From NCBI GenBank assembly GCA_963663475.2, contig CAXXJV010000001.1, positions 192,001 to 256,000 of the forward strand: a stretch of DNA of 64,000 bases, given 5' to 3'. This DNA is from Candidatus Cloacimonadales bacterium (GTDB lineage: Bacteria > Cloacimonadota > Cloacimonadia > Cloacimonadales > JAFGVF01). Position 1 is the stretch's first letter; every line of letters starts with the position of its first letter. The notes under the pieces were generated by a model, which did not search any database, was not told where the DNA came from, and worked only from the letters and a program-made list of their open reading frames with translations. The position numbers and the translations under genes are program-made. Of the stretch, positions 3,241 through 19,079 are shown piece after piece.

Positions 3241-3387
3241 ATCCTAAACATACACCCCAGTTTCTTAATCCTTAGCCTTAATCACTGGTCTTGGCTACTT
3301 TCTTATAGTAGTGTGGTGGCATTTCTAATGATACATAGCCAAGAGTGACCAAAGAAAAGATCGATTTCTCTTCAATTCTAAGAACAT

Positions 3388-3415
3388 TTTATACTTGATT
3401 GATTTTATCTGTCAA
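3388..3415 (-). promoter_or_regulatory. Putative sigma70 promoter for the 1..2980 gene
   Basis: Minus strand TTGACA (3410-3415), 16 nt, TATAAA. Confidence 0.45.
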
Positions 3416-3562
3416 TATCTTTTTTAATCTATTTTATATTTTTCTCATTTTTGCTACAGTTTCTGAAATTATGTTTTTAATTATTGACTTGCAAATATCG
3501 GCATTTGAAATACATTTTAAGCAATTTTTTTTATTTCTCTGATCAAAATCCTTCTAACATGA

Positions 3563-3631
3563 CTAATCCTTCCTTTACAGTCTTTCGATGAAAGTCCAGG
3601 TTTCATCGAAAGACTGTAAAGGAAGGATTAG
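3563..3631. repeat. Perfect 31-bp inverted repeat with 7-nt loop (copy 1)
   Basis: ctaatccttcctttacagtctttcgatgaaa-gtccagg-tttcatcgaaagactgtaaaggaaggattag; second copy at 53164-53230. Confidence 0.95.
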
Positions 3632-3824
3632 GGATCTTCAAGCTAGGAAGGGAAATTCTAATTATTTTTGCAAAAGTGGTCAATTTATGAAAAAATGGCT
3701 CCTTAAAGATTATGAGGACTCATAAAATTAAAATAAATTTACATGAATGATAGAGCATTAAAGGTCAATAACCCGATGTTCTTATGATAAAACAATCTAA
3801 CACTTATAAAAGGAGGTTAAAACA

Positions 3825-4142
3825 ATGGTTATTGTCGGTTTTAAATTACCCCATGGATTAAAAGCTAAAGCAAAAAGAAATGGATACGCATTTGCTAAAT
3901 ACTCTAATCAACTAAACTATCACCTAAAAAAGAAAAATTCTCCCCCAATTGTGGAAAAACATCAACACTTTGGACAAATTATGAAGCAATTAAAACTTGC
4001 CTATAAAGACCTTAGTGATGAAGATAGACAAGCTTTAAGGCAAAGAAGAAAAGAGGAAGGAAGTACTAAGTCGGACTGGATACACTTTATCAGAGAATAT
4101 TATCAGAAGGAGACAGGAAGACAAAGACAAAGAGAAAGATAG
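3825..4142 (+). CDS. Small basic hypothetical protein (105 aa), possibly nucleic-acid binding
   Basis: Strong RBS AAAGGAGG before ATG; K/R-rich; helical motif FGQIMKQLKLAYKDLSDEDRQAL. Confidence 0.7.
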   Translation: MVIVGFKLPHGLKAKAKRNGYAFAKYSNQLNYHLKKKNSPPIVEKHQHFGQIMKQLKLAYKDLSDEDRQALRQRRKEEGSTKSDWIHFIREYYQKETGRQRQRER

Positions 4143-4155
4143 TTTCACTAAGAAA

Positions 4156-4256
4156 CTATGGACTGAACCATCCTTGCTCTCAGAAGATTGTGCAAGCAAG
4201 GATGCTACCAATAACTGGGAAAGCGGGCATCCCTGCCCGTACCGCTAACTAACTGG
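4156..4256. repeat. REP/REPIN cluster forming the 3' exon side of the intron
   Basis: ctatggactgaaccatccttgctctcag...tgcaagcaaggatgcta doublet (inverse of 6228-6295) and CTGGGAAAGCGGGCATCCCTGCCCG hairpin. Confidence 0.8.
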
Positions 4257-6176
4257 ATAGGGGTAGGGGAGCTACCATTACTGACTCCCCTCCCTCCGAA
4301 CCGTACGTGCGGTTCTCCCGCATACGGCTCTCCAGATAATAATTTACTCTCTGTGTAGAGATTGACATAATTGACGATGGGTTTCGGTTAATGAGAGAAG
4401 CCCAGCGTCTTCAAAGATTTTGTTTGGGTATCTGAAATTATCTCTATATGTTGTTGCAATTCCTTTTCGTTTTTCAAACTTCTTTAGTATACTTCTTAGT
4501 CTTCGTCTTATCCATCCGTCCATATCTGGAAAAGTTGTTTTGTAGCAGTGTTTGTAATATTCAAACCAGCCTCGTATAATCGGATTTATCCTCTTGATTA
4601 TTTCTTTTAAACTTTTCCCATTTGTTCTTCTGGTATGTTTCCTAATACTATCCCTGAATTTCTTTTCACTCTTACGTTTAGGAAACTTTCAGAAAATCTT
4701 TGTCTTCTCGTAGTTCTTAGATTTAACAAATCTATATCCCAAAAATCCTATCTCATCTTGCATACTATCAAGTATTTTAGTTTTGGTAGGATGGAGAATT
4801 AACTCAGCTTTTTCTGTCCATTCCTTTACTGTTTCAAGTGCTTCTTCTGATTCTTTCTGGCTTCTACACATAATTATAAAGTCATCTGCATATCTTACCA
4901 TTTGATAGTTTTTACTACTTATTAACCAGTCAAACTTATTTAGATAGATATTTGCTAATAATGGACTTAATACTGCACCTTGTGGTGTTCCTTTTTCGGG
5001 AATCCATGTATCTAGCCCATTAAATATACTTTGATTCAGAAATTTCTGAATTAGTTCTAGTACACGACTATCAGATATCTCTTCTTTTACTAAATCCATT
5101 AACTTTGATTTAGGTATTGTATCAAAATATCCTTTTAAGTCTGCATCAACTACATATCGATAGCCTCTTTTAAGGTTATTATACACTATTCTGAGTGCAT
5201 CTTTACAACTTCTTTTAGGTCTAAAACCAAAGCTATTTTCTGAAAATTTGATTTCAAATATTGGCTCGATTACATTCCTTATTGCTGTTTGAACTATTCT
5301 GTCTTCAACTGTTGGAATGCCTAAAGGTCGCTTTTCCTTACTTCCAGGTTTATCTATCATTACCCTTTTAATTGCATTTGGCTCGTATTCCTGCATTTCT
5401 AATCGCTTAGCTAATCTTTGCAACCTTTGTTCTACATGTTTCTCATAATGAGAGATACTCATATTATCAACGCCTGCACTTCCTTTATTAGCTTTTACTC
5501 TTTTCCATGCTGATAATAGATTGTCTTTTGAATATACTTTATCTATTAAGCTAAACCATTTGCCTCCTTTGACTCCCCTTTGGAGAGCTGTCAACATTTT
5601 GTCTGTCCAGACAGACGATTCAGTCCATTTCCACTCTAATCTTATGAGAGAATTTTCTTCTTGTCCTTGTCTAGTCTTTTGTGACACTAACGAACATTTG
5701 TCTTTCATCTGTTTTTCCTTTTAAAATTTTATTATCCTGCTCCCCTTCGCTACTTTCAGGTTATGTTGTCCTGAATATCAACACTACTATGAGAGCTCTG
5801 ACTCCTGAATACATCTCTACCTATATTCAGGTCTCATAGCTTACCGATAACGACCTTCTTACCATTCCATCTCCAACCACATCTAACGTCCTGATATAGC
5901 TTACCGTTCAAACATCATACAGCTTATCAGGTGTATGGCAAGCGGTGTAGGTTCTCACACCTTCCTGCAATACCATCATCAGTTTTCACCTTGCAATCGG
6001 AGGCTCAACACTATTAGCTGCCGAATCGAGTTCACTTATGTTACGGACTGGTATTTCACTTCCAGTTACTCCCCACCCAACCTCACGGTTACGCAGTTAC
6101 TTTCAGTTACAGAACTTTTGATGTAAGTTCTGAGTAGGACTTTCACCTACCTGATAGTTATCTATCACTATCGTAC
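4257..6176 (-). mobile_element. Group II intron (~1.92 kb) with RT/maturase ORF, no endonuclease domain
   Basis: Minus strand: 5' GTACG at 6176 (variant of GUGYG); domain V GAGCCGTATGCGGGAGAACCGCACGTACGGTTC with AGC triad; domain VI GGGGAG...CTCCCCTACCCCTAT ending at 4257 (+/-1). Confidence 0.9.
4344..5708 (-). pseudogene. ltrA: Group II intron reverse transcriptase/maturase interrupted by an in-frame TGA (4689-4691)
   Basis: RPLGIPTVEDRIVQ, GTPQGAVLSPLLANIYL, RYADD, FLGY; after the TGA the same frame continues KFPKRKSEKKFRDSIRKHTRR...INPIIRGWFEYYK...MDGWIRRRLR (domain X) to TAA at 4344-4346. Confidence 0.85.
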
Positions 6177-6530
6177 GGTCGCGGGATTCTAGCCCGCGGT
6201 TACGCAGATTACAAGTGGTTACGGGGCCTATGGAGTGGAAGCATCCTTGCTTGCACACACATTATTCTGAGACCAGGGATGGTCTCAGTCCATAGTTTTT
6301 TTAGCCCGCATTTACGCAGATGACAAGCGGTTACGGGAACGGGTCGCGGGATTCTAGCCCGCGGTTACGCAGGTTAAAAAGTGGTTACGGTGCCTATGGA
6401 GTGTGGAAGCATCCTTGCTTGCACACACATTATACTGAGACCAGGGATGGTCTCAGTCCATATTTTTTTAGCCCGCGGTTACGTAGATAAAAAAGTGGTT
6501 ACAGGATTAACCAGCATTCCTGCTAGCATC
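6177..6530 (+). repeat. REP cluster upstream of RAYT (GGTCGCGGGATTCTAGCCCGCG hairpins plus two REPIN doublets)
   Basis: Hairpin copies at 6177 and ~6342, half copies ~6300 and ~6470; tatggagt(gt)ggaagcatccttgcttgcac...ctgagaccagggatggtctcagtccata doublets at ~6228 and ~6394. Confidence 0.85.
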
Positions 6531-6653
6531 TAATGTATCAAAATGAGCAAACAGCATCTTTTTTTTGGGCTAAAAATTCCTTACCCTGTATCCCATTTTC
6601 CTTTAACAAATGAATAATCTATCTATATTACATCCCCAAAAATACGATAATTA

Positions 6654-6681
6654 TTGACAAATAAGTAATATTATCTATAAA
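6654..6681 (+). promoter_or_regulatory. Putative sigma70 promoter of RAYT
   Basis: TTGACA 6654-6659, 16 nt, TATAAA; AGGAGG RBS before ATG 6709. Confidence 0.5.
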
Positions 6682-6708
6682 AGACATATCATGTAGGAGG
6701 TTATTGTA

Positions 6709-7278
6709 ATGAATAAAGATTTAGAAACTAACAAGGGCTGGTACAAAAGAAAATATTTACCCCATTATGATCAGGAAAGAATATATCAGCATATTACATT
6801 TAGACTATTTGATTCTGTACCAAAATCACAAATTGAAAAATGGAAAAATGTTTTACTTGCTAGTAAATCAATGATTGATGATAGTGAATTAGGATTACAA
6901 ATAAAATTACAAGCGAAAATTACGGAATTTGAAGATAAAGGCTTTGGTAATTGCTATTTGCAAAACTCACAAGTGAGACATATTGTTGAAAACTCTCTAC
7001 TTTTCTTCAATGAAAAAAGATACAAATTAATTGAATGGAAAATTATGCCTAATCATGTTCATGTATTAATTGAAGTTTTTGCAGGTGAAAATTTGCCTAA
7101 AATCGTATATAGTTGGAAATCTTATACTGCCAATAAATGCAATAAAATACTTAATCGTAAAGGAAAATTCTGGATGGATGATTATTATGACACTTTCATT
7201 AGAAATGAACAACATTTTTTGAAAGTAATTGAATATATAAGAAATAATGATAAACCACAAGATGAGAAAAGATGCTAA
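6709..7278 (+). CDS. REP-associated tyrosine transposase (RAYT, Y1 HUH family)
   Basis: LPHYD...HITFRL.DS N-terminus, HUH motif IMPNHVHVL, WKSYTA, FW.DDYYD..IRN, candidate catalytic Tyr in EYIRNN; flanked by oppositely oriented REP clusters. Confidence 0.9.
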   Translation: MNKDLETNKGWYKRKYLPHYDQERIYQHITFRLFDSVPKSQIEKWKNVLLASKSMIDDSELGLQIKLQAKITEFEDKGFGNCYLQNSQVRHIVENSLLFFNEKRYKLIEWKIMPNHVHVLIEVFAGENLPKIVYSWKSYTANKCNKILNRKGKFWMDDYYDTFIRNEQHFLKVIEYIRNNDKPQDEKRC

Positions 7279-7440
7279 CTTGTAAGGCAGGACGGTCTGT
7301 GTAAAAAAGAAATAATCTATTCACTAATTTCACTAATTTCACTAAGAATTGGATTAAGATTTCGGGGAAATTCCATAAAATAACTGAAAGTGATAAATAC
7401 TTTAGTTCAAGGTAAAAGCCAGTAAGGCTGGTAAAGTTTC

Positions 7441-7806
7441 GTAAGCACTTGATATCTGAGTAACCGCGGGCTGGAATCCCGCGACCCATTCCCGTAACCA
7501 CTTGTCTTATGCGTAAACGCGGGCTGGAATCCCGCGACCCAATCCCATAACCACTTTTTATCTGCGTAAACGCGGGCTGGAATCCCGCGGCCCATTCCCG
7601 TAAGCACTTGATATCTGAGTAACCGCGGGCTGGAATCCCGCGACCCAATCCCATAACCACTTTTTATCTGCGTAAACGCGGGCTGGAATCCCGCGACCCA
7701 ATCCCGTAAGCACTCGCCTTCTGCGTAATCGCGGGCTGGAATCCCGCGACCCAATCCCGTAAGCACTTGATATCTACGTAACCGCGGGCTGGAATCCCGC
7801 GACCCA
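7441..7806 (-). repeat. Tandem array of seven 53-bp REP units
   Basis: CGCGGGCTGGAATCCCGCG hairpins at 7465, 7518, 7571, 7624, 7677, 7730, 7783, opposite in orientation to the 6177-6530 cluster. Confidence 0.95.
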
Positions 7807-7842
7807 AAGGCGTGCATAACTTTAGCTTTAGGCAAACAAACA

Positions 7843-7869
7843 AAAAGCCCCAGCTTTAGCCAGGGCTTT
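7843..7869 (-). terminator. Putative intrinsic terminator of the 10742-7953 operon
   Basis: aaagccc-cagctttagcca-gggcttt with A-tract on the + strand. Confidence 0.45.
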
Positions 7870-7952
7870 AATTTATTTGAGTTTGCGGACAAGGATGTCC
7901 ACCTTCCCAGTTAGGAAGATGCCTGCAAGGATGCAAGCGCTCCCAGTGTTAA

Positions 7953-10073
7953 TTATTTAATTTTTACAATCTTGAAGTTCTTTGTTTGTGTAGGAGAAGT
8001 CATTCTAACAAAGTAGATACCGTTAGCAACTTTCTTGTTGTTAGCATCTCTACCATCGAATTCGAAGTTATGCTCACCAGCATTGAATGATTCTCTTCTT
8101 ACAACTTGACCTAAAAGGTTGTAGATAGTTACAGTTGCAGTTTCGCCTTCTTTAACTCTTAAAGAAGTAGAAGTTGATGTTGTGAAAGGTGAAGGACCGA
8201 AGTTACGGAAAGTAGTTTCTGTGATACCAGGAACTACAGGATCATCTTCAACTGTTACAACGATAGGACCATGGAAAGAATTTTCGTTTGCTAATTCAGA
8301 AACTTCTAACCAGTAGTAGTAAGTTGTAGATTCAACTTCATTATCTGTATAAGTATAAGTTTGTGTTTGTGTTTGGTTATGTGGAGCTACTATTGTAGGA
8401 TTGATTCTGATAGCTTGTGCTTGGTTATCAGTTTCAGCTCTATATACATTATAACCTTGAAGGTTAGATTCTGACTCAGTTACCCATTTTAATGTAACAT
8501 ATTCGTTAGCATGTGCTACAGCTGTGAATGATGAAAGAGTTACAGGAAGGGTGTTTGGGTCATATGCAAAAATGTCTGTTGGACCTTTAGCACCAAAATC
8601 AATAATAATTGTTAAAACACCACCAACAAATGTATAGTCTGCTGGATCTACTGGATTATCACCATAGTAAACAACAATATCAGACCAACCAAAGTTGAAT
8701 ACAAATGTATATATACCTGAAGCTTGTCCAATATTTGAACTAAAATATTGAAGTCCACTAGGGATAACGATACCAGCTATTTCTTGTCCAACAGTAACAG
8801 GAACTTCTACAGGTGCTGTATATGTTCCACCAGCAGGAATAGTAATATTGATAACTATATCATTTGGATTTTCAGGATCACCAATAACAACTTCATCAGT
8901 TGTTGTAAATGTCCATATTGGCATATCGCCACCTGGATATAATTTTCCAGGAGGAAGATCTCTATTTGTTTTCTTTAAACCTTTTTTTGCTGCATTATTA
9001 ACAAAAGGTTTAACATACCATTCATATTCAGTATTATATTCTAATGGTTCATCAATAGCAAACTCAAGAGCAACAACATCATCTTGATAGAAACCATCAA
9101 CATAAACTTCATAACCGTCAGGGACTACAGTACCTTCATAAGTCCAAGTTAATGTTGGCATAAGTTCTACACCAGTTGCTTCATCAGCAGGTGTGTCAAC
9201 TGTTGCCCATGCATCTGGACCAACAGCAGGAGCAGCCTTTGTAGTGAATGTCCAATCTGCTGGCATGTCGCCTTCTGGGTATAATCTTTCAGGTTCAACT
9301 CTACTTGCTTTCATTCCACGTTTTGCTGCAGGTTCAATATAAGGTTTTATACCCCATGTGTAAGTTGTTTCATAAGCTAAATCAGCAGGATGGATATAAC
9401 CGAACATTGTGTTATCAGCTTCAAAAGCTACATCATCTACATGAGCACCATCAAGCCAGACTTCAAAACCATCTGGTTCAACTGTGCCTTCATAGTTCCA
9501 GCCAAGATTTGGGTAATTCATGTCCATATCGGCATCATTAATACCAACACCAGTTGCACCATCAGCTGGGAACAAGTATGTTGCCCATGCGTCTGGAGCT
9601 ACGGGACCTGTAGGTCCGCCCCATGCGACCGGATTAGCTTCTAATTGTTGGTCAGCACCAGTTTTGCTTATATCAACGGGACCATGTTCATTTCCATCAC
9701 CATCAATAAACCAGAAATTACAATGTACATTACCTCCACCAGCACCGAAATTTGTCATATATTGCATTTGAACCAATAATCTACCAGGTGTATCAGCATC
9801 ATCAGGTCCTAAATATTGAGTAGTTGATGCATTTAAATCTTCTTCATTAGGCCAATTCCAATACATAGTATTTCTTGTTCCATAGAGTACGTCAAACATA
9901 CCATCAATAGCTTCATTTCCAAAGTAAAACTCAACAACTTTGATTCCTACTGTACCAGCTGGATGATAACCTAAAGACTCTGTTTGCAAATCAATTGCAA
10001 CGGTGTAAGGGTTTTGGGCAAAAAGCCCAATCATGCTTAGTAAAAATAGAGATACAATTAATAATTTTTTCAT
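7953..10073 (-). CDS. Secreted protein with two FN3-like repeats and a FlgD-Ig/T9SS-type C-terminal domain
   Basis: Signal peptide; duplicated PDAWAT...PAD.ATGV...W.YEGTV.PDG.EV module; LPVTLSSFTA, IYNLLGQVVR, VANGIYFVRM. Confidence 0.88.
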   Translation of the reverse strand: MKKLLIVSLFLLSMIGLFAQNPYTVAIDLQTESLGYHPAGTVGIKVVEFYFGNEAIDGMFDVLYGTRNTMYWNWPNEEDLNASTTQYLGPDDADTPGRLLVQMQYMTNFGAGGGNVHCNFWFIDGDGNEHGPVDISKTGADQQLEANPVAWGGPTGPVAPDAWATYLFPADGATGVGINDADMDMNYPNLGWNYEGTVEPDGFEVWLDGAHVDDVAFEADNTMFGYIHPADLAYETTYTWGIKPYIEPAAKRGMKASRVEPERLYPEGDMPADWTFTTKAAPAVGPDAWATVDTPADEATGVELMPTLTWTYEGTVVPDGYEVYVDGFYQDDVVALEFAIDEPLEYNTEYEWYVKPFVNNAAKKGLKKTNRDLPPGKLYPGGDMPIWTFTTTDEVVIGDPENPNDIVINITIPAGGTYTAPVEVPVTVGQEIAGIVIPSGLQYFSSNIGQASGIYTFVFNFGWSDIVVYYGDNPVDPADYTFVGGVLTIIIDFGAKGPTDIFAYDPNTLPVTLSSFTAVAHANEYVTLKWVTESESNLQGYNVYRAETDNQAQAIRINPTIVAPHNQTQTQTYTYTDNEVESTTYYYWLEVSELANENSFHGPIVVTVEDDPVVPGITETTFRNFGPSPFTTSTSTSLRVKEGETATVTIYNLLGQVVRRESFNAGEHNFEFDGRDANNKKVANGIYFVRMTSPTQTKNFKIVKIK

Positions 10074-18350: not shown

Positions 18351-19079
18351 CTACATTTTTCCTTTCATTCGATAGCTATTTCCATCGATCAGGATAGTTT
18401 CAGCATGATGGACTAATCTGTCGACTATTGCTGTAGTGATAACATTATCTCCAAAAGATTCTCCCCATTCTTGAAAAAGTCTGTTTGAGGTTATTATGAC
18501 TGATCTGAATTCATAAAGTTCATTAACAAGCTTAAAGAATAAACTTGCATTAACTGCCTTAATAGGTAAATATCCTATTTCATCAATAATGATTAAATCA
18601 TTTTTTACTAATTTAGATATCCACTTTTTAAAATCATTTTCATTATTGGCTATAATCATTTCATCGATTAATTCATTCATATTGTAAAATATTACCTTGT
18701 ATCCTTTCAAAATAGCTTCATATCCCAAGGCAATAGATATATGCGTCTTACCAACCCCTGGAGGTCCCATTAATATTTTGTTTTCTCTGTTATCGATCCA
18801 ATTAAACTCCTTCCACTCTGTTATCATTCTTTTAGTTACTGAATGCTGATATTTAAAATCGAACTCATCAAAATTCTTTAATATTGGGAAATTTGCCCTT
18901 CTTAATTGCAAAGATATCAATGTCTGATTTCTGCTATTGCATTCATTTTCAATAACATAAGATAAAAAACTAAGATATGATAATTCTTTATCTTGTGCAT
19001 ATTTTAAATATGATTCTAAATTATTAATTGTATGTCTGCATCTAATTCTTAATAAATTTTTCCTTAAATTTTCTATCAT
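18351..19079 (-). CDS. istB: IS21 helper ATPase
   Basis: GPPGVGKTH, IIDEIGY, IITSN, AIVDRLVHH, GNSYR. Confidence 0.96.
   Translation of the reverse strand: MIENLRKNLLRIRCRHTINNLESYLKYAQDKELSYLSFLSYVIENECNSRNQTLISLQLRRANFPILKNFDEFDFKYQHSVTKRMITEWKEFNWIDNRENKILMGPPGVGKTHISIALGYEAILKGYKVIFYNMNELIDEMIIANNENDFKKWISKLVKNDLIIIDEIGYLPIKAVNASLFFKLVNELYEFRSVIITSNRLFQEWGESFGDNVITTAIVDRLVHHAETILIDGNSYRMKGKM

What the first reader, a model, noticed from the sequence alone, without database searches (positions are those of the whole stretch)
4156..7946. Group II intron inserted at the foot of a REP hairpin beside the likely cognate RAYT: a possible REP-targeting retroelement
Seen: on the intron strand the 5' exon ends CGCGGGCTAGAATCCCGCGACC|GTACG, a complete REP hairpin plus 3 nt. 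The 3' exon starts CCAGTTAG, the tail that follows other REPs here (7907, 23318, 32124). Removing the intron rebuilds a CTGG(G)-GTCGCGGG REP (+/-1 nt). The RAYT gene starts ~530 bp away. Known: IIC introns home just downstream of stem-loops (terminators, attC), but this intron has a full-length AGC-triad domain V, unlike IIC, and a non-canonical GUACG 5' end. Inference: a non-IIC intron lineage may use RAYT-maintained REP hairpins as an abundant, harmless target, giving a three-part RAYT/REP/intron system. Only one insertion is visible here.
Basis: partly seen in the sequence, partly recalled or inferred. Interest (0 to 1): 0.78.

Follow-up and report, generated by a model that had tools for sequence, protein, structure and literature searches.

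The report
Group II intron targeting REP hairpins
This is a complete, probably still mobile group II intron that lands a few bases after the hairpins of a repeated intergenic element (REP), using the hairpin-plus-short-pairing strategy known from class C introns, although it belongs to a separate intron lineage.

Summary
A 1920-nt group II intron lies at window 4257-6176 on the minus strand, 3 nt after a REP hairpin. The genome's second copy, 1 nt different, sits at the same offset behind another REP.

The pattern holds across relatives:
- All 17 copies in five Cloacimonadales genomes follow GC-rich hairpins of genome-specific dispersed repeats.
- 47 of 57 more distant relatives do so under a strict test, against 13-18% of controls.
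- Covariation over 63 introns locates EBS1 (nt 179-184, 4-5 bp) and EBS3 (G300).
- Hairpin sequences differ between identical intron copies, so there is no IBS2.

The mechanism is therefore class-C-like: stem-loop, short IBS1 and IBS3.

The intron is not a canonical IIC intron. Its domain V is 33 nt with an AGC triad and a 5-nt loop, and its protein forms its own clade.

Only 1 of 17 copies lies within 1 kb of a RAYT gene, so a functional three-part system is not supported.

An in-frame UGA in the intron protein is conserved, and the sequence after it is under purifying selection.

Verdict: a new variant of a known kind, of moderate interest.

The parts
4257..6176 (-). Complete group II intron, 1920 nt: 468 nt of ribozyme 5' of the ORF, the ORF in domain IV, and 86 nt 3' of it. 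It starts GUACG and ends CUAU.
   Evidence: Rfam match, second copy, end-to-end homology, contig ends in 4 runs.
4343..5708 (-). Intron-encoded protein: 454 codons plus stop, with RT and X/maturase domains and no endonuclease domain.
4689..4691 (-). In-frame UGA at codon 340, where 5 of 5 closest full-length relatives have Trp.
   Evidence: It is kept in G000 (2 copies), G004, G008 (2 copies) and 4 metagenome variants. dN/dS downstream of it is 0.04-0.06.
5993..5998 (-). EBS1 (intron nt 179-184, GAUUGC), which pairs with the last 4-6 nt of the 5' exon.
   Evidence: Covariation over 63 introns. Differences between near-identical copies cluster here.
5877..5877 (-). EBS3 (intron nt 300, G), which pairs with the first base of the 3' exon.
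   Evidence: 52 of 54 pairs (G:C 39, A:T 5, G:T 4, T:A 4, G:G 2).
4298..4330 (-). Domain V: 33 nt, AGC triad, 4-bp distal stem, 5-nt loop.
4257..4297 (-). Domain VI, with a bulged A at 4264, 8 nt from the 3' end.
   Evidence: alignment and the sequence. The branch point is inferred, not tested.
6177..6198 (-). 5' exon: REP hairpin CGCGGG-CTAGAAT-CCCGCG (6198-6180) followed by ACC. IBS1 is GCGACC (6182-6177), with an A:C mismatch to EBS1 at position -2.
4256..4256 (-). IBS3, the C that is the first base of the 3' exon. It begins the REP tail CCAGTTAG.
6177..6500 (-). Left REP array. Units with intact hairpins lie at 6180-6198 and 6345-6363, with degenerate units between them. It is inverted relative to the right array.
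6709..7278 (+). RAYT (REP-associated tyrosine transposase), the only copy in the genome.
   Evidence: In one search REP_Tyr_transpos scores 60 bits, below its cut-off of 80, against 29 bits for IS200.
7465..7801 (+). Right REP array of seven units with a 53-nt period.
4212..4250 (-). Second-type REP unit in the 3' exon (GGGCAGGGATGCCC hairpin with TTCCCAGTTA tail).
7886..7946 (+). Two second-type REP units with the TCCCAGT tail, on the far side of the RAYT module.

Best explanation
The feature is an autonomous group II intron without an endonuclease domain that retrotransposes to sites a few nucleotides 3' of stable GC-rich stem-loops. In this genome, and in its family-level relatives, those stem-loops are REP hairpins maintained by RAYT transposases.

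The target is read in three parts: a stem-loop, which stands where IIA and IIB introns have IBS2; 4-5 bp between EBS1 (nt 179-184) and the last bases of the 5' exon; and one pair between EBS3 (G300) and the first base of the 3' exon.

By analogy with class C introns, insertion is inferred to occur by reverse splicing into single-stranded DNA of the lagging-strand template, where the hairpin can extrude. New REP families are reached by point changes in EBS1.

The RAYT gene is a neighbour only because REP arrays flank it. The intron protein is made by read-through of a conserved UGA at a Trp codon.

Shown: anatomy, boundaries, target pattern, EBS1 and EBS3 covariation, and purifying selection after the UGA. 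Inferred: recognition of the hairpin as a structure, the single-stranded DNA and replication-fork route, and read-through.
For: Copies in this genome:
- Two copies differ by 1 nt and sit behind the same REP junction, with unrelated 3' exons and different sequence beyond 49 nt upstream.

Copies in relatives:
- All 17 copies in G000, G004, G008, G027 and G013 follow a hairpin ending 0-6 nt before the junction. The folds give -10.8 to -17.8 kcal/mol for the 16 copies, and the 17th has an imperfect stem.
- Identical intron copies follow different hairpin sequences: 3 variants in G027 and 3 in G013.
- The hairpins are dispersed repeats, with 0 hits for the control patterns. Counts: 142 REP in G000, 57 in G004, 66 in G027, about 30 in G013, and 71, 110 and 161 GTTCCCAGT tails in G000, G004 and G008.
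- REP-RAYT linkage is seen in G000, G004 and G008.

Distant relatives:
- 47 of 57 sites have a strict hairpin, against 17.9% of shuffles and 209 of 1568 (13.3%) intron-internal windows.

Pairing:
- EBS1 pairs at positions -1 to -4 in 59-61 of 63 introns each and at -5 in 42 of 63, with 0 of 500 permutations reaching these values. At -6 it pairs in 17 of 63 and at -7 there is no signal.
- The best 4-column window pairs in 95.6% of cells against 72% for the next best, and 0 of 200 permutations reach it.
- EBS3 pairs in 52 of 54 introns.
- EBS1 is the variable spot between copies that are otherwise over 97% identical. G000 and G004 differ there in line with their REP tails. A metagenome variant with EBS1 GAUGGU sits behind ACCGUC after a different hairpin.

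Strand:
- Both copies lie in the minority REP orientation relative to the GC-skew domains: 2 of 22 REPs in that orientation carry the intron, against 0 of 115 in the other.

Activity:
- dN/dS is 0.04-0.07 before the UGA and 0.04-0.06 after it.
Against: - In G000 alone, sequence could explain the site. The 7-mer GCGACC|C occurs 159 times and 117 of these are in REPs, because IBS1 overlaps the stem.
- G000's own EBS1 has an A:C mismatch at position -2. It would pair better (5 contiguous bp) with CAATC|C, 8 nt further along most REP tails, yet no copy sits there.
- 10 of 57 distant sites fail the strict hairpin test, although several have 5-bp stems.
- The replication argument rests on GC skew only. 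dnaA lies at 1.43 Mb, at neither skew switch.
- No experiment or RNA data shows splicing, mobility or read-through.
- In G027 and G013 the hairpin repeats were not linked to a RAYT.
Confidence: 0.8

Rival explanations
1. It is simply an ordinary member of bacterial class C (IIC), so nothing beyond the known terminator and stem-loop targeting is present.
For: - The nearest solved proteins are IIC RTs: GsI-IIC at 1.6e-62 and 215 bits, and 7uim at 213 bits. T.el4h scores 147.5 bits and LtrA 141.7 bits.
- There is no endonuclease domain.
- The target is a stem-loop with a short IBS1 and IBS3.
- Toor 2006 (PMC1702495, abstract and Introduction read) already says IIC introns follow terminators 'or other inverted repeats'.
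Against: - Domain V is 33 nt with AGC and a 4-bp distal stem. Toor 2006 describes IIC domain V as having CGC and a distal stem 2 bp shorter. All 71 of the 86 relatives in which my pattern found domain V have the 33-nt form.
- EBS1 pairing is 4-5 bp, not 3-4.
- The targets lack a T-run.
- The IIC-type intron family of the same genome (31-nt domain V, terminator plus T-run, Rfam D1D4-3) is only about 38% identical and falls in another clade.
Confidence: 0.15
2. This is conventional sequence-specific retrohoming. The intron recognises a REP sequence by base pairing alone, and the hairpin is irrelevant.
For: - In G000 the IBS1+IBS3 7-mer is mostly REP-borne, 117 of 159 occurrences.
- The two 5' exons are identical for 49 nt except at one base.
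Against: - Covariation ends at position -5 or -6.
- Identical copies in G027 and G013 sit behind different stems.
- A 5-6 nt specificity would give thousands of sites per genome, yet 17 of 17 copies and 47 of 57 distant sites follow hairpins, against 13-18% of controls.
Confidence: 0.07
3. This is a functional three-part system in which RAYT, REP and intron depend on each other.
For: The intron lies 533 nt from the only RAYT gene, inside its flanking REP array.
Against: - Copy 2 and all 15 copies in the other four genomes are not beside a RAYT. The nearest are about 14-30 kb away.
- The syntenic RAYT locus of G004 has REP arrays and no intron.
- RAYT-flanking arrays are inverted, so one arm necessarily offers the rare orientation the intron uses. 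That alone explains the adjacency.
Confidence: 0.04
4. The copies are dead relics, inactivated by the stop codon and multiplied by duplication or by another intron's protein.
For: - There is an in-frame TGA.
- One G008 copy has a second TGA at codon 403.
- The genome holds two other intron families.
Against: - dN/dS after the stop is 0.04-0.06 over dS up to 0.85.
- The TGA is retained in variants with different EBS1 sequences and different insertion sites.
- The two G000 copies differ by 1 nt.
- The other intron families are at most 40% identical.
Confidence: 0.04

Closest known systems
Bacterial class C (IIC) group II introns, e.g. B.h.I1, GsI-IIC, O.i.I1
   Same: - The protein lacks an endonuclease domain.
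- Insertion is a few nucleotides 3' of a stem-loop that takes the place of IBS2.
- There is a short IBS1-EBS1 pairing plus IBS3-EBS3.
- Copies lie outside genes.
- The orientation fits insertion into the lagging-strand template.
- The nearest solved proteins are IIC RTs.
   Different: - Domain V is 33 nt with AGC and a 5-nt loop, not the shortened CGC form (Toor 2006).
- IBS1 is 4-5 bp.
- The targets are REP-type hairpins with tails such as CTA, CTC, TTC or ACC, not terminators with a T-run.
- The protein clade is separate from the IIC-type family sampled here.
IIC-attC introns (S.ma.I2 lineage)
   Same: An intron sublineage specialised on one family of recombination hairpins that another element's recombinase maintains (attC and the integron integrase there; REP and RAYT here).
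   Different: The hairpin family and the intron lineage both differ. Comparison with attC introns rests on papers (PMC4424553 and PMC7923331, passages), not on sequences tested here.
IEP types g6, U1 and U2 of Miura et al. 2022
   Same: The paper reports them as non-C types lying next to class C in the protein tree and sitting directly after rho-independent terminators (PMC8919778, passages). This clade may be one of them.
   Different: I could not test membership, because no labelled sequences were on hand and supplements are closed. That survey measured distance to predicted terminators, not to REPs, and did not map EBS1.
IIE and IIF introns
   Same: They have a 5-nt domain V loop, a small ribozyme (450-700 nt; 554 nt here) and no endonuclease domain (PMC3753933, passages).
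   Different: Those introns show a covarying EBS2-IBS2. Here the corresponding exon stretch is a hairpin that varies between identical copies.
REP-targeting insertion sequences (ISPpu9, ISPpu10, ISPa11, IS1397)
   Same: They use REPs as harmless landing pads. The same table lists a P. putida group II intron with 2 of 9 copies REP-associated (PMC1525189, one table passage).
   Different: They are DNA transposons, not retroelements, and no mechanism was given for the intron.

Membership tests
Group II intron (mobile, ORF-bearing) | Domains V and VI match the family model. | tested here: met
   RF00029 scores 60.2 bits against a gathering score of 40 at 4257-4332, minus strand.
Group II intron (mobile, ORF-bearing) | RT plus maturase protein encoded in domain IV. 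| tested here: met
   RVT_1 and GIIM are present. TIGR04416 scores 409.8 bits against a cut-off of 300. The ORF is read through one UGA.
Group II intron (mobile, ORF-bearing) | 5' GUGYG and 3' AY ends. | tested here: inconclusive
   The 3' end is AU. The 5' end is GUACG, one departure from the consensus. The same variant is kept in G004, G008, G013 and the Burkholderiaceae plasmid copies, while most relatives have GUGCG.
Class C / IIC | Insertion shortly 3' of a stem-loop, with no IBS2-EBS2. | tested here: met
   17 of 17 copies and 47 of 57 distant sites follow hairpins, against 13-18% of controls. Stems differ between identical copies, and there is no pairing signal beyond -6.
Class C / IIC | IBS1-EBS1 of 3-4 bp, plus IBS3-EBS3. 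| tested here: inconclusive
   There are 4 strongly paired positions plus a fifth paired in 42 of 63 introns. EBS3 is present.
Class C / IIC | Domain V distal stem 2 bp shorter, and CGC instead of AGC. | tested here: not met
   Domain V is 33 nt with AGC, a 4-bp distal stem and a 5-nt loop, here and in 71 of 86 relatives; the other 15 were not recognised by my pattern. Caveat: the terminator-targeting family of this genome has the short stem but also AGC.
Class C / IIC | Epsilon-prime 11-nt bulge with AGGAA. | tested here: inconclusive
   The AGGAA that I noticed by eye in the 5' ribozyme part lies in a stem-loop that is deleted in G008. No full secondary structure was built, and the fold was partial.
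Class C / IIC | The protein falls inside the class C clade. | tested here: inconclusive
   The clade is monophyletic and separate from the IIC-type (D1D4-3) group sampled. No class-labelled references were available, and the two trees disagree on where the outgroup attaches.
IIE / IIF | 5-nt domain V loop. | tested here: met
IIE / IIF | Covarying EBS2-IBS2. | tested here: not met
REP / RAYT system | HUH/Y1 transposase of the RAYT type, single copy. | tested here: met
   Y1_Tnp scores 5.4e-11. The best NCBIfam model is REP_Tyr_transpos at 60 bits, below its cut-off of 80. There is 1 match in the genome.
REP / RAYT system | The gene is flanked by inverted REPs that are abundant elsewhere in the genome. 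| tested here: met
   Inverted arrays lie at 6180-6363 (minus strand) and 7465-7801 (plus strand). There are 142 copies genome-wide.

The most novel reading that the evidence does not exclude
A widespread, so far unnamed lineage of group II introns uses the stem-loop targeting strategy thought typical of class C and is specialised on REP-type single-strand DNA hairpins rather than terminators. The lineage is marked by a 33-nt AGC domain V and a 4-5-bp EBS1. It is found in Cloacimonadota, on Burkholderiaceae plasmids and in many soil and sediment metagenomes. It follows the turnover of REP families by rapid point changes in EBS1 and can use only the minority of REPs whose tail strand is the lagging-strand template. 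It keeps its own expression low through a conserved leaky UGA. REP/RAYT systems would then be a general niche for retroelements, comparable to attC sites for IIC-attC introns.
Probability: 0.4. Interest if true: 0.65.

Novelty: new variant of a known kind. Interest (0 to 1): 0.5.

Why it matters
- **Reach of hairpin targeting.** Stem-loop targeting would not be confined to canonical IIC ribozymes. A whole intron clade has made the hairpins of another selfish or domesticated element (REP/RAYT) its habitat.
- **Testable targeting rules.** The mapped EBS1 and EBS3, together with natural near-identical variants that have different EBS1 sequences and different targets, give a ready system. It can test how much of target choice is structure and how much is pairing.
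- **Expression control.** The conserved UGA at a Trp codon, followed by sequence under selection, is a candidate case of read-through control of a retroelement protein.
- **Genome annotation.** In these genomes, REP arrays are places to expect such introns.

Tried and rejected
Class labelling
- PDB chains cannot be fetched as sequences, so IIC references could not enter the tree.
- I looked for Ca.ac.I1, the g1 intron of Toro and Martinez-Abarca 2013. In three genomes of a related genus I found only a 29% RT and a 43% one. I cannot say which, if either, is that intron.
- The 419-aa pSymA protein served as outgroup. That it is RmInt1 and class D is my recollection, not a test.

Trees
- The IQ-TREE run contained a wrong ORF for G027, which is not an intron protein, so its root and that row are meaningless.
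- The FastTree rerun fixed this, but I printed no support values.
- The two trees differ in where the S. meliloti branch attaches.

Structure
- The RNAalifold fold of domain I gave only a partial structure. It did not resolve the EBS1 loop or the epsilon-prime region.

Reads
- A joint 4234->6192 in two runs has only 23 letters on its shorter side and lies in REP-like sequence. I do not read it as an empty site.

Ideas rejected
- I first suspected that copy 1 is a recombinant, with a REP 5' exon and the tail of another REP type as 3' exon. The G004 locus shows natural units built as the same hairpin, then GTTC, then CCAGTTA, so the empty site is an ordinary unit type.
- Reassignment of TGA was rejected. 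Reading TGA as sense lengthens ORFs no more than doing so for TAG or TAA, and the tRNA-Trp has anticodon CCA.
- Selenocysteine was considered because a tRNA-Sec exists. It was not tested beyond seeing no GC-rich hairpin after the UGA by eye, and relatives have Trp at this codon.

Not examined
- The G010 copy (L009) was not examined for its 5' exon.

Literature
- Searches for REP or RAYT together with group II introns gave only the P. putida table entry.
- Robart 2007 is not held.
- Supplements of Toro 2013 and Miura 2022, which may list class labels or sites for these introns, were not seen.

Full report
**1. What is there**

The window is G000:C1:192001-256000. On the minus strand, a group II intron runs from 6176 (GUACG) to 4257 (CCCCUAU), 1920 nt in all.

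- Rfam's domain V/VI model matches 4257-4332 at 60.2 bits against a gathering score of 40.
- The ORF in domain IV (5708-4343) gives a 454-residue protein with RVT_1 and GIIM and no endonuclease domain. It scores 409.8 bits on TIGR04416.
- The 5' exon ends with a complete REP hairpin, CGCGGG-CTAGAAT-CCCGCG, followed by ACC. The 3' exon starts CCAGTTAG.
- A RAYT gene (6709-7278, plus strand) starts 533 nt away. It matches Y1_Tnp at 5.4e-11, and its best NCBIfam model is REP_Tyr_transpos at 60 bits, below the cut-off of 80.
- That gene is the only RAYT homologue in the genome and is flanked by inverted REP arrays.
- The REP has 142 copies in the genome and none for the reversed control pattern.

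Two small corrections apply: domain V is 33 nt, not 34, and GUACG is a lineage variant shared by relatives.

**2. Boundaries and a second insertion**

The genome holds a second full copy at C1:2658737-2660656, 1 nt different.

- Its 5' exon is again ...CGCGGGCTAGAATCCCGCGACC|.
- Its 3' exon is unrelated (CAAAGATGGG...). It completes the common terminal REP tail ACCCAAAG, which 22 REPs carry.
- Relatives align from intron nt 1 to nt 1920.
- In four public runs from four studies, the long contig pieces stop at 6177 in 4 of 4 and at 4256 in 3 of 4, as expected for a multi-copy element with varying flanks.
- The G004 genome has the syntenic RAYT locus without the intron. There the REP units read hairpin-GTTC-CCAGTTA, so the empty site of copy 1 (hairpin-ACC|CCAGTTAG) is an ordinary unit type and not a recombinant.

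**3. The pattern in relatives**

I searched 61 related genomes with the intron protein, and 12 (G000 among them) had a match at E <= 1e-60. The same intron family (55-99% protein identity) was found in G004 (1 copy), G008 (2), G027 (6), G013 (6) and G010 (1, not examined).

- All 17 copies examined follow a GC-rich hairpin ending 0-6 nt before the junction. One G013 stem is imperfect.
- The hairpins differ by genome, and they differ among identical intron copies within G027 and within G013.
- They belong to dispersed repeat families: 66 copies in G027, about 30 in G013, and 71, 110 and 161 GTTCCCAGT tails in G000, G004 and G008, with controls of 0 to 21.
- In G000, G004 and G008 these repeats flank RAYT genes in inverted orientation.
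- In G027 and G013 I found none of the target hairpins at the three RAYT loci examined in each genome. There they are REP-like, but a RAYT link is not shown.
- A scan of one genome per species found close relatives only in Cloacimonadota MAGs: 11 of 12 loci, the twelfth being a 35% match.
- A metagenome scan gave 80 loci at 45-57% identity, and plasmids of Cupriavidus and Paraburkholderia carry members at 45-46%.

I then tested 57 sites for a strict hairpin. These were 54 metagenome contigs plus 3 MAG loci, one of which is the G008 copy already counted. Five loci whose 5' end was not in the contig were dropped: L056, L060, L089, L106 and L123.

- 47 of 57 have a stem of at least 6 bp, with at most one mismatch, ending 1-5 nt before the junction.
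- The same test passes in 17.9% of shuffled flanks and in 209 of 1568 intron-internal windows.

**4. How the site is read**

I aligned 63 introns and looked for the columns that best complement the exon ends.

- EBS1 lies at intron nt 179-184. The best four-column window pairs in 95.6% of cells against 72% for the next best, and 0 of 200 permutations reach it.
- By position, pairing is 61, 60, 61 and 59 of 63 at -1 to -4, 42 of 63 at -5, 17 of 63 at -6, and none at -7.
- EBS3 is G300, which pairs with the first base of the 3' exon in 52 of 54 introns.
- There is no room for an IBS2. That stretch is the hairpin, and it varies between identical copies.
- EBS1 is the variable spot of the element. 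G000 and G004 are 97.9% identical, yet four of their few differences in the 5' ribozyme part fall in this loop, in line with REP tails GACC and GUUC.
- In three runs, 4 of 10 differences from the window cluster within 9 nt there. A fourth variant has EBS1 GAUGGU behind the exon ACCGUC, preceded by a different hairpin.

Two points do not fit neatly.

- G000's EBS1 (GAUUGC) has an A:C mismatch at -2 with its own exon. It would pair better with CAATC|C further down the usual REP tail.
- In G000 alone, the 7-mer GCGACC|C is mostly REP-borne (117 of 159), so sequence by itself would often find a REP there.

**5. Strand**

On contig C1 the REP orientation follows the GC-skew domains: 71 to 17 in one domain and 5 to 44 in the other.

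- Both intron copies sit in the minority orientation: 2 of 22 REPs in that orientation carry the intron, against 0 of 115 in the other.
- The intron strand is the G-rich strand. By the usual rule this is the lagging-strand template, as reported for class C introns (Miura 2022, passages).
- This would also explain why one copy lies beside the RAYT. The two flanking arrays are inverted, so one arm must offer the rare orientation.
- The origin is inferred from skew alone, and dnaA lies at 1.43 Mb, at neither switch.

**6. Which kind of intron**

[quoted passage not shown] Its domain V is 33 nt with AGC, a 4-bp distal stem and a 5-nt loop.
- The same form is found in 71 of 86 relatives. The other 15 were cut contigs or variants that my pattern missed.
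- A 5-nt domain V loop is described for IIE and IIF introns (Nagy 2013, passages), but those have a covarying EBS2.
- The nearest solved proteins are IIC RTs at 215 and 213 bits, against 147 and 142 for T.el4h and LtrA.
- The same genome has a second intron family with a 31-nt domain V, placed after terminators with T-runs and matching Rfam D1D4-3. It has a third family of the D1D4-4 type.
- In a FastTree of 36 proteins, the clade studied here is monophyletic and separate from both of those groups, at about 36-38% identity to each.
- An earlier IQ-TREE run was spoiled by a wrong ORF.
- I had no class-labelled references, so I cannot say whether this clade is one of the types g6, U1 or U2. Miura 2022 found those next to class C and directly after terminators. 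It could also be the g1 group of Toro and Martinez-Abarca 2013 (main text read). Supplements that may settle this were closed.

**7. The stop codon**

Codon 340 is UGA, where the five closest full-length relatives have Trp.

- TGA is an ordinary stop in this genome.
- The UGA is kept in both G000 copies, in G004, in both G008 copies and in four metagenome variants.
- dN/dS after it (0.04-0.06) equals that before it (0.04-0.07), over dS up to 0.85.
- The maturase part is therefore still made, most simply by read-through. This is inferred, not shown.

**8. Comparison and verdict**

The mechanism is that of class C introns, and the element is a distinct lineage that applies it to REP hairpins.

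- In the held literature I found REP-associated group II introns only as a table entry, 2 of 9 copies in P. putida (Tobes and Pareja 2006).
- I found nothing on RAYT and introns.
- Reviews state that only class C departs from site-specific homing (Zimmerly and Semper 2015, passages; Waldern 2020, passages), with the 2022 survey as the exception noted above.
- Two earlier notes of this scan describe hairpin-sited introns on other DNA. One prompted the class D comparison.

I rate this a new variant of a known kind and of moderate interest. The three-part-system reading is not supported. The REP-targeting reading is supported.

Noticed in passing
window 4689-4691 (minus strand): There is an in-frame UGA at a Trp position of the intron protein. 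It is conserved across three genomes and four metagenome variants, and the 114 codons after it are under purifying selection as strong as the codons before it. This is a candidate read-through control.
   Followed up: yes
G000 contig C1, whole: REP orientation tracks the GC-skew domains: 71 to 17 in one domain and 5 to 44 in the other. The minority orientation is enriched in the CTAGAAT loop variant. dnaA (1.43 Mb) lies at neither skew switch (about 0.6 and 2.2 Mb).
   Followed up: partly
loci L046-L125, 5' exons: 15 of the 47 target hairpins that passed the strict test have the triloop GGA, and 21 have GGA somewhere in the loop. I do not know whether this reflects REP families or a preference of the intron. 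The two G000 targets lack it.
   Followed up: no
G000:C1:501705-502880 and 1832393-1833568 (L025, L029); G000:C1:1957505-1960576 (L003): The same genome holds two further group II intron families. One is a IIC-type family (31-nt domain V, Rfam D1D4-3) placed after terminator hairpins with T-runs. The other is a D1D4-4-like family with a 33-nt domain V.
   Followed up: partly
L145 (G004:C1:238800-240450), compared with window 3300-8000: The RAYT locus is syntenic between the two genomes. However, the RAYT gene is on the opposite strand and only 52% identical, and the REP unit has a 28-nt period with a GTTCCCAGTTA tail instead of a 53-nt period.
   Followed up: partly
L040 (two copies about 2 kb apart), L049, L062: Introns occur in tandem. 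Two copies lie in successive units of one REP array in G013. Two metagenome contigs have an intron 5' end directly after another copy's 3' end.
   Followed up: no
window 3563-3632: A long, nearly perfect palindrome (arms of about 30 nt) lies upstream of the small ORF at 3825-4142. The stretch matches two places in G004 on both strands, so it is another repeated element. The 105-aa ORF has no Pfam match.
   Followed up: no
window 18471-18776 (minus strand) and 46415-46720 (plus strand), and 14 other places in G000: Sixteen copies of a roughly 245-aa ORF match the DnaA ATPase family weakly, at 44-45 bits. I take them for IstB-like helpers of an IS21-type element, which is recalled and not tested. 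One copy lies about 570 nt from intron copy 2.
   Followed up: no
window 47496-52529 (minus strand): A complete rRNA operon (16S, 23S and 5S) is present.
   Followed up: no
L139, L140 (Cupriavidus and Paraburkholderia plasmids): Members of the clade on plasmids of two genera share the same 23-nt 5' exon. It contains a 5-bp hairpin (ACCGC-GTCA-GCGGT) followed by TTAGT, and in one case it lies between integrase genes. This looks site-specific rather than REP-like.
   Followed up: no
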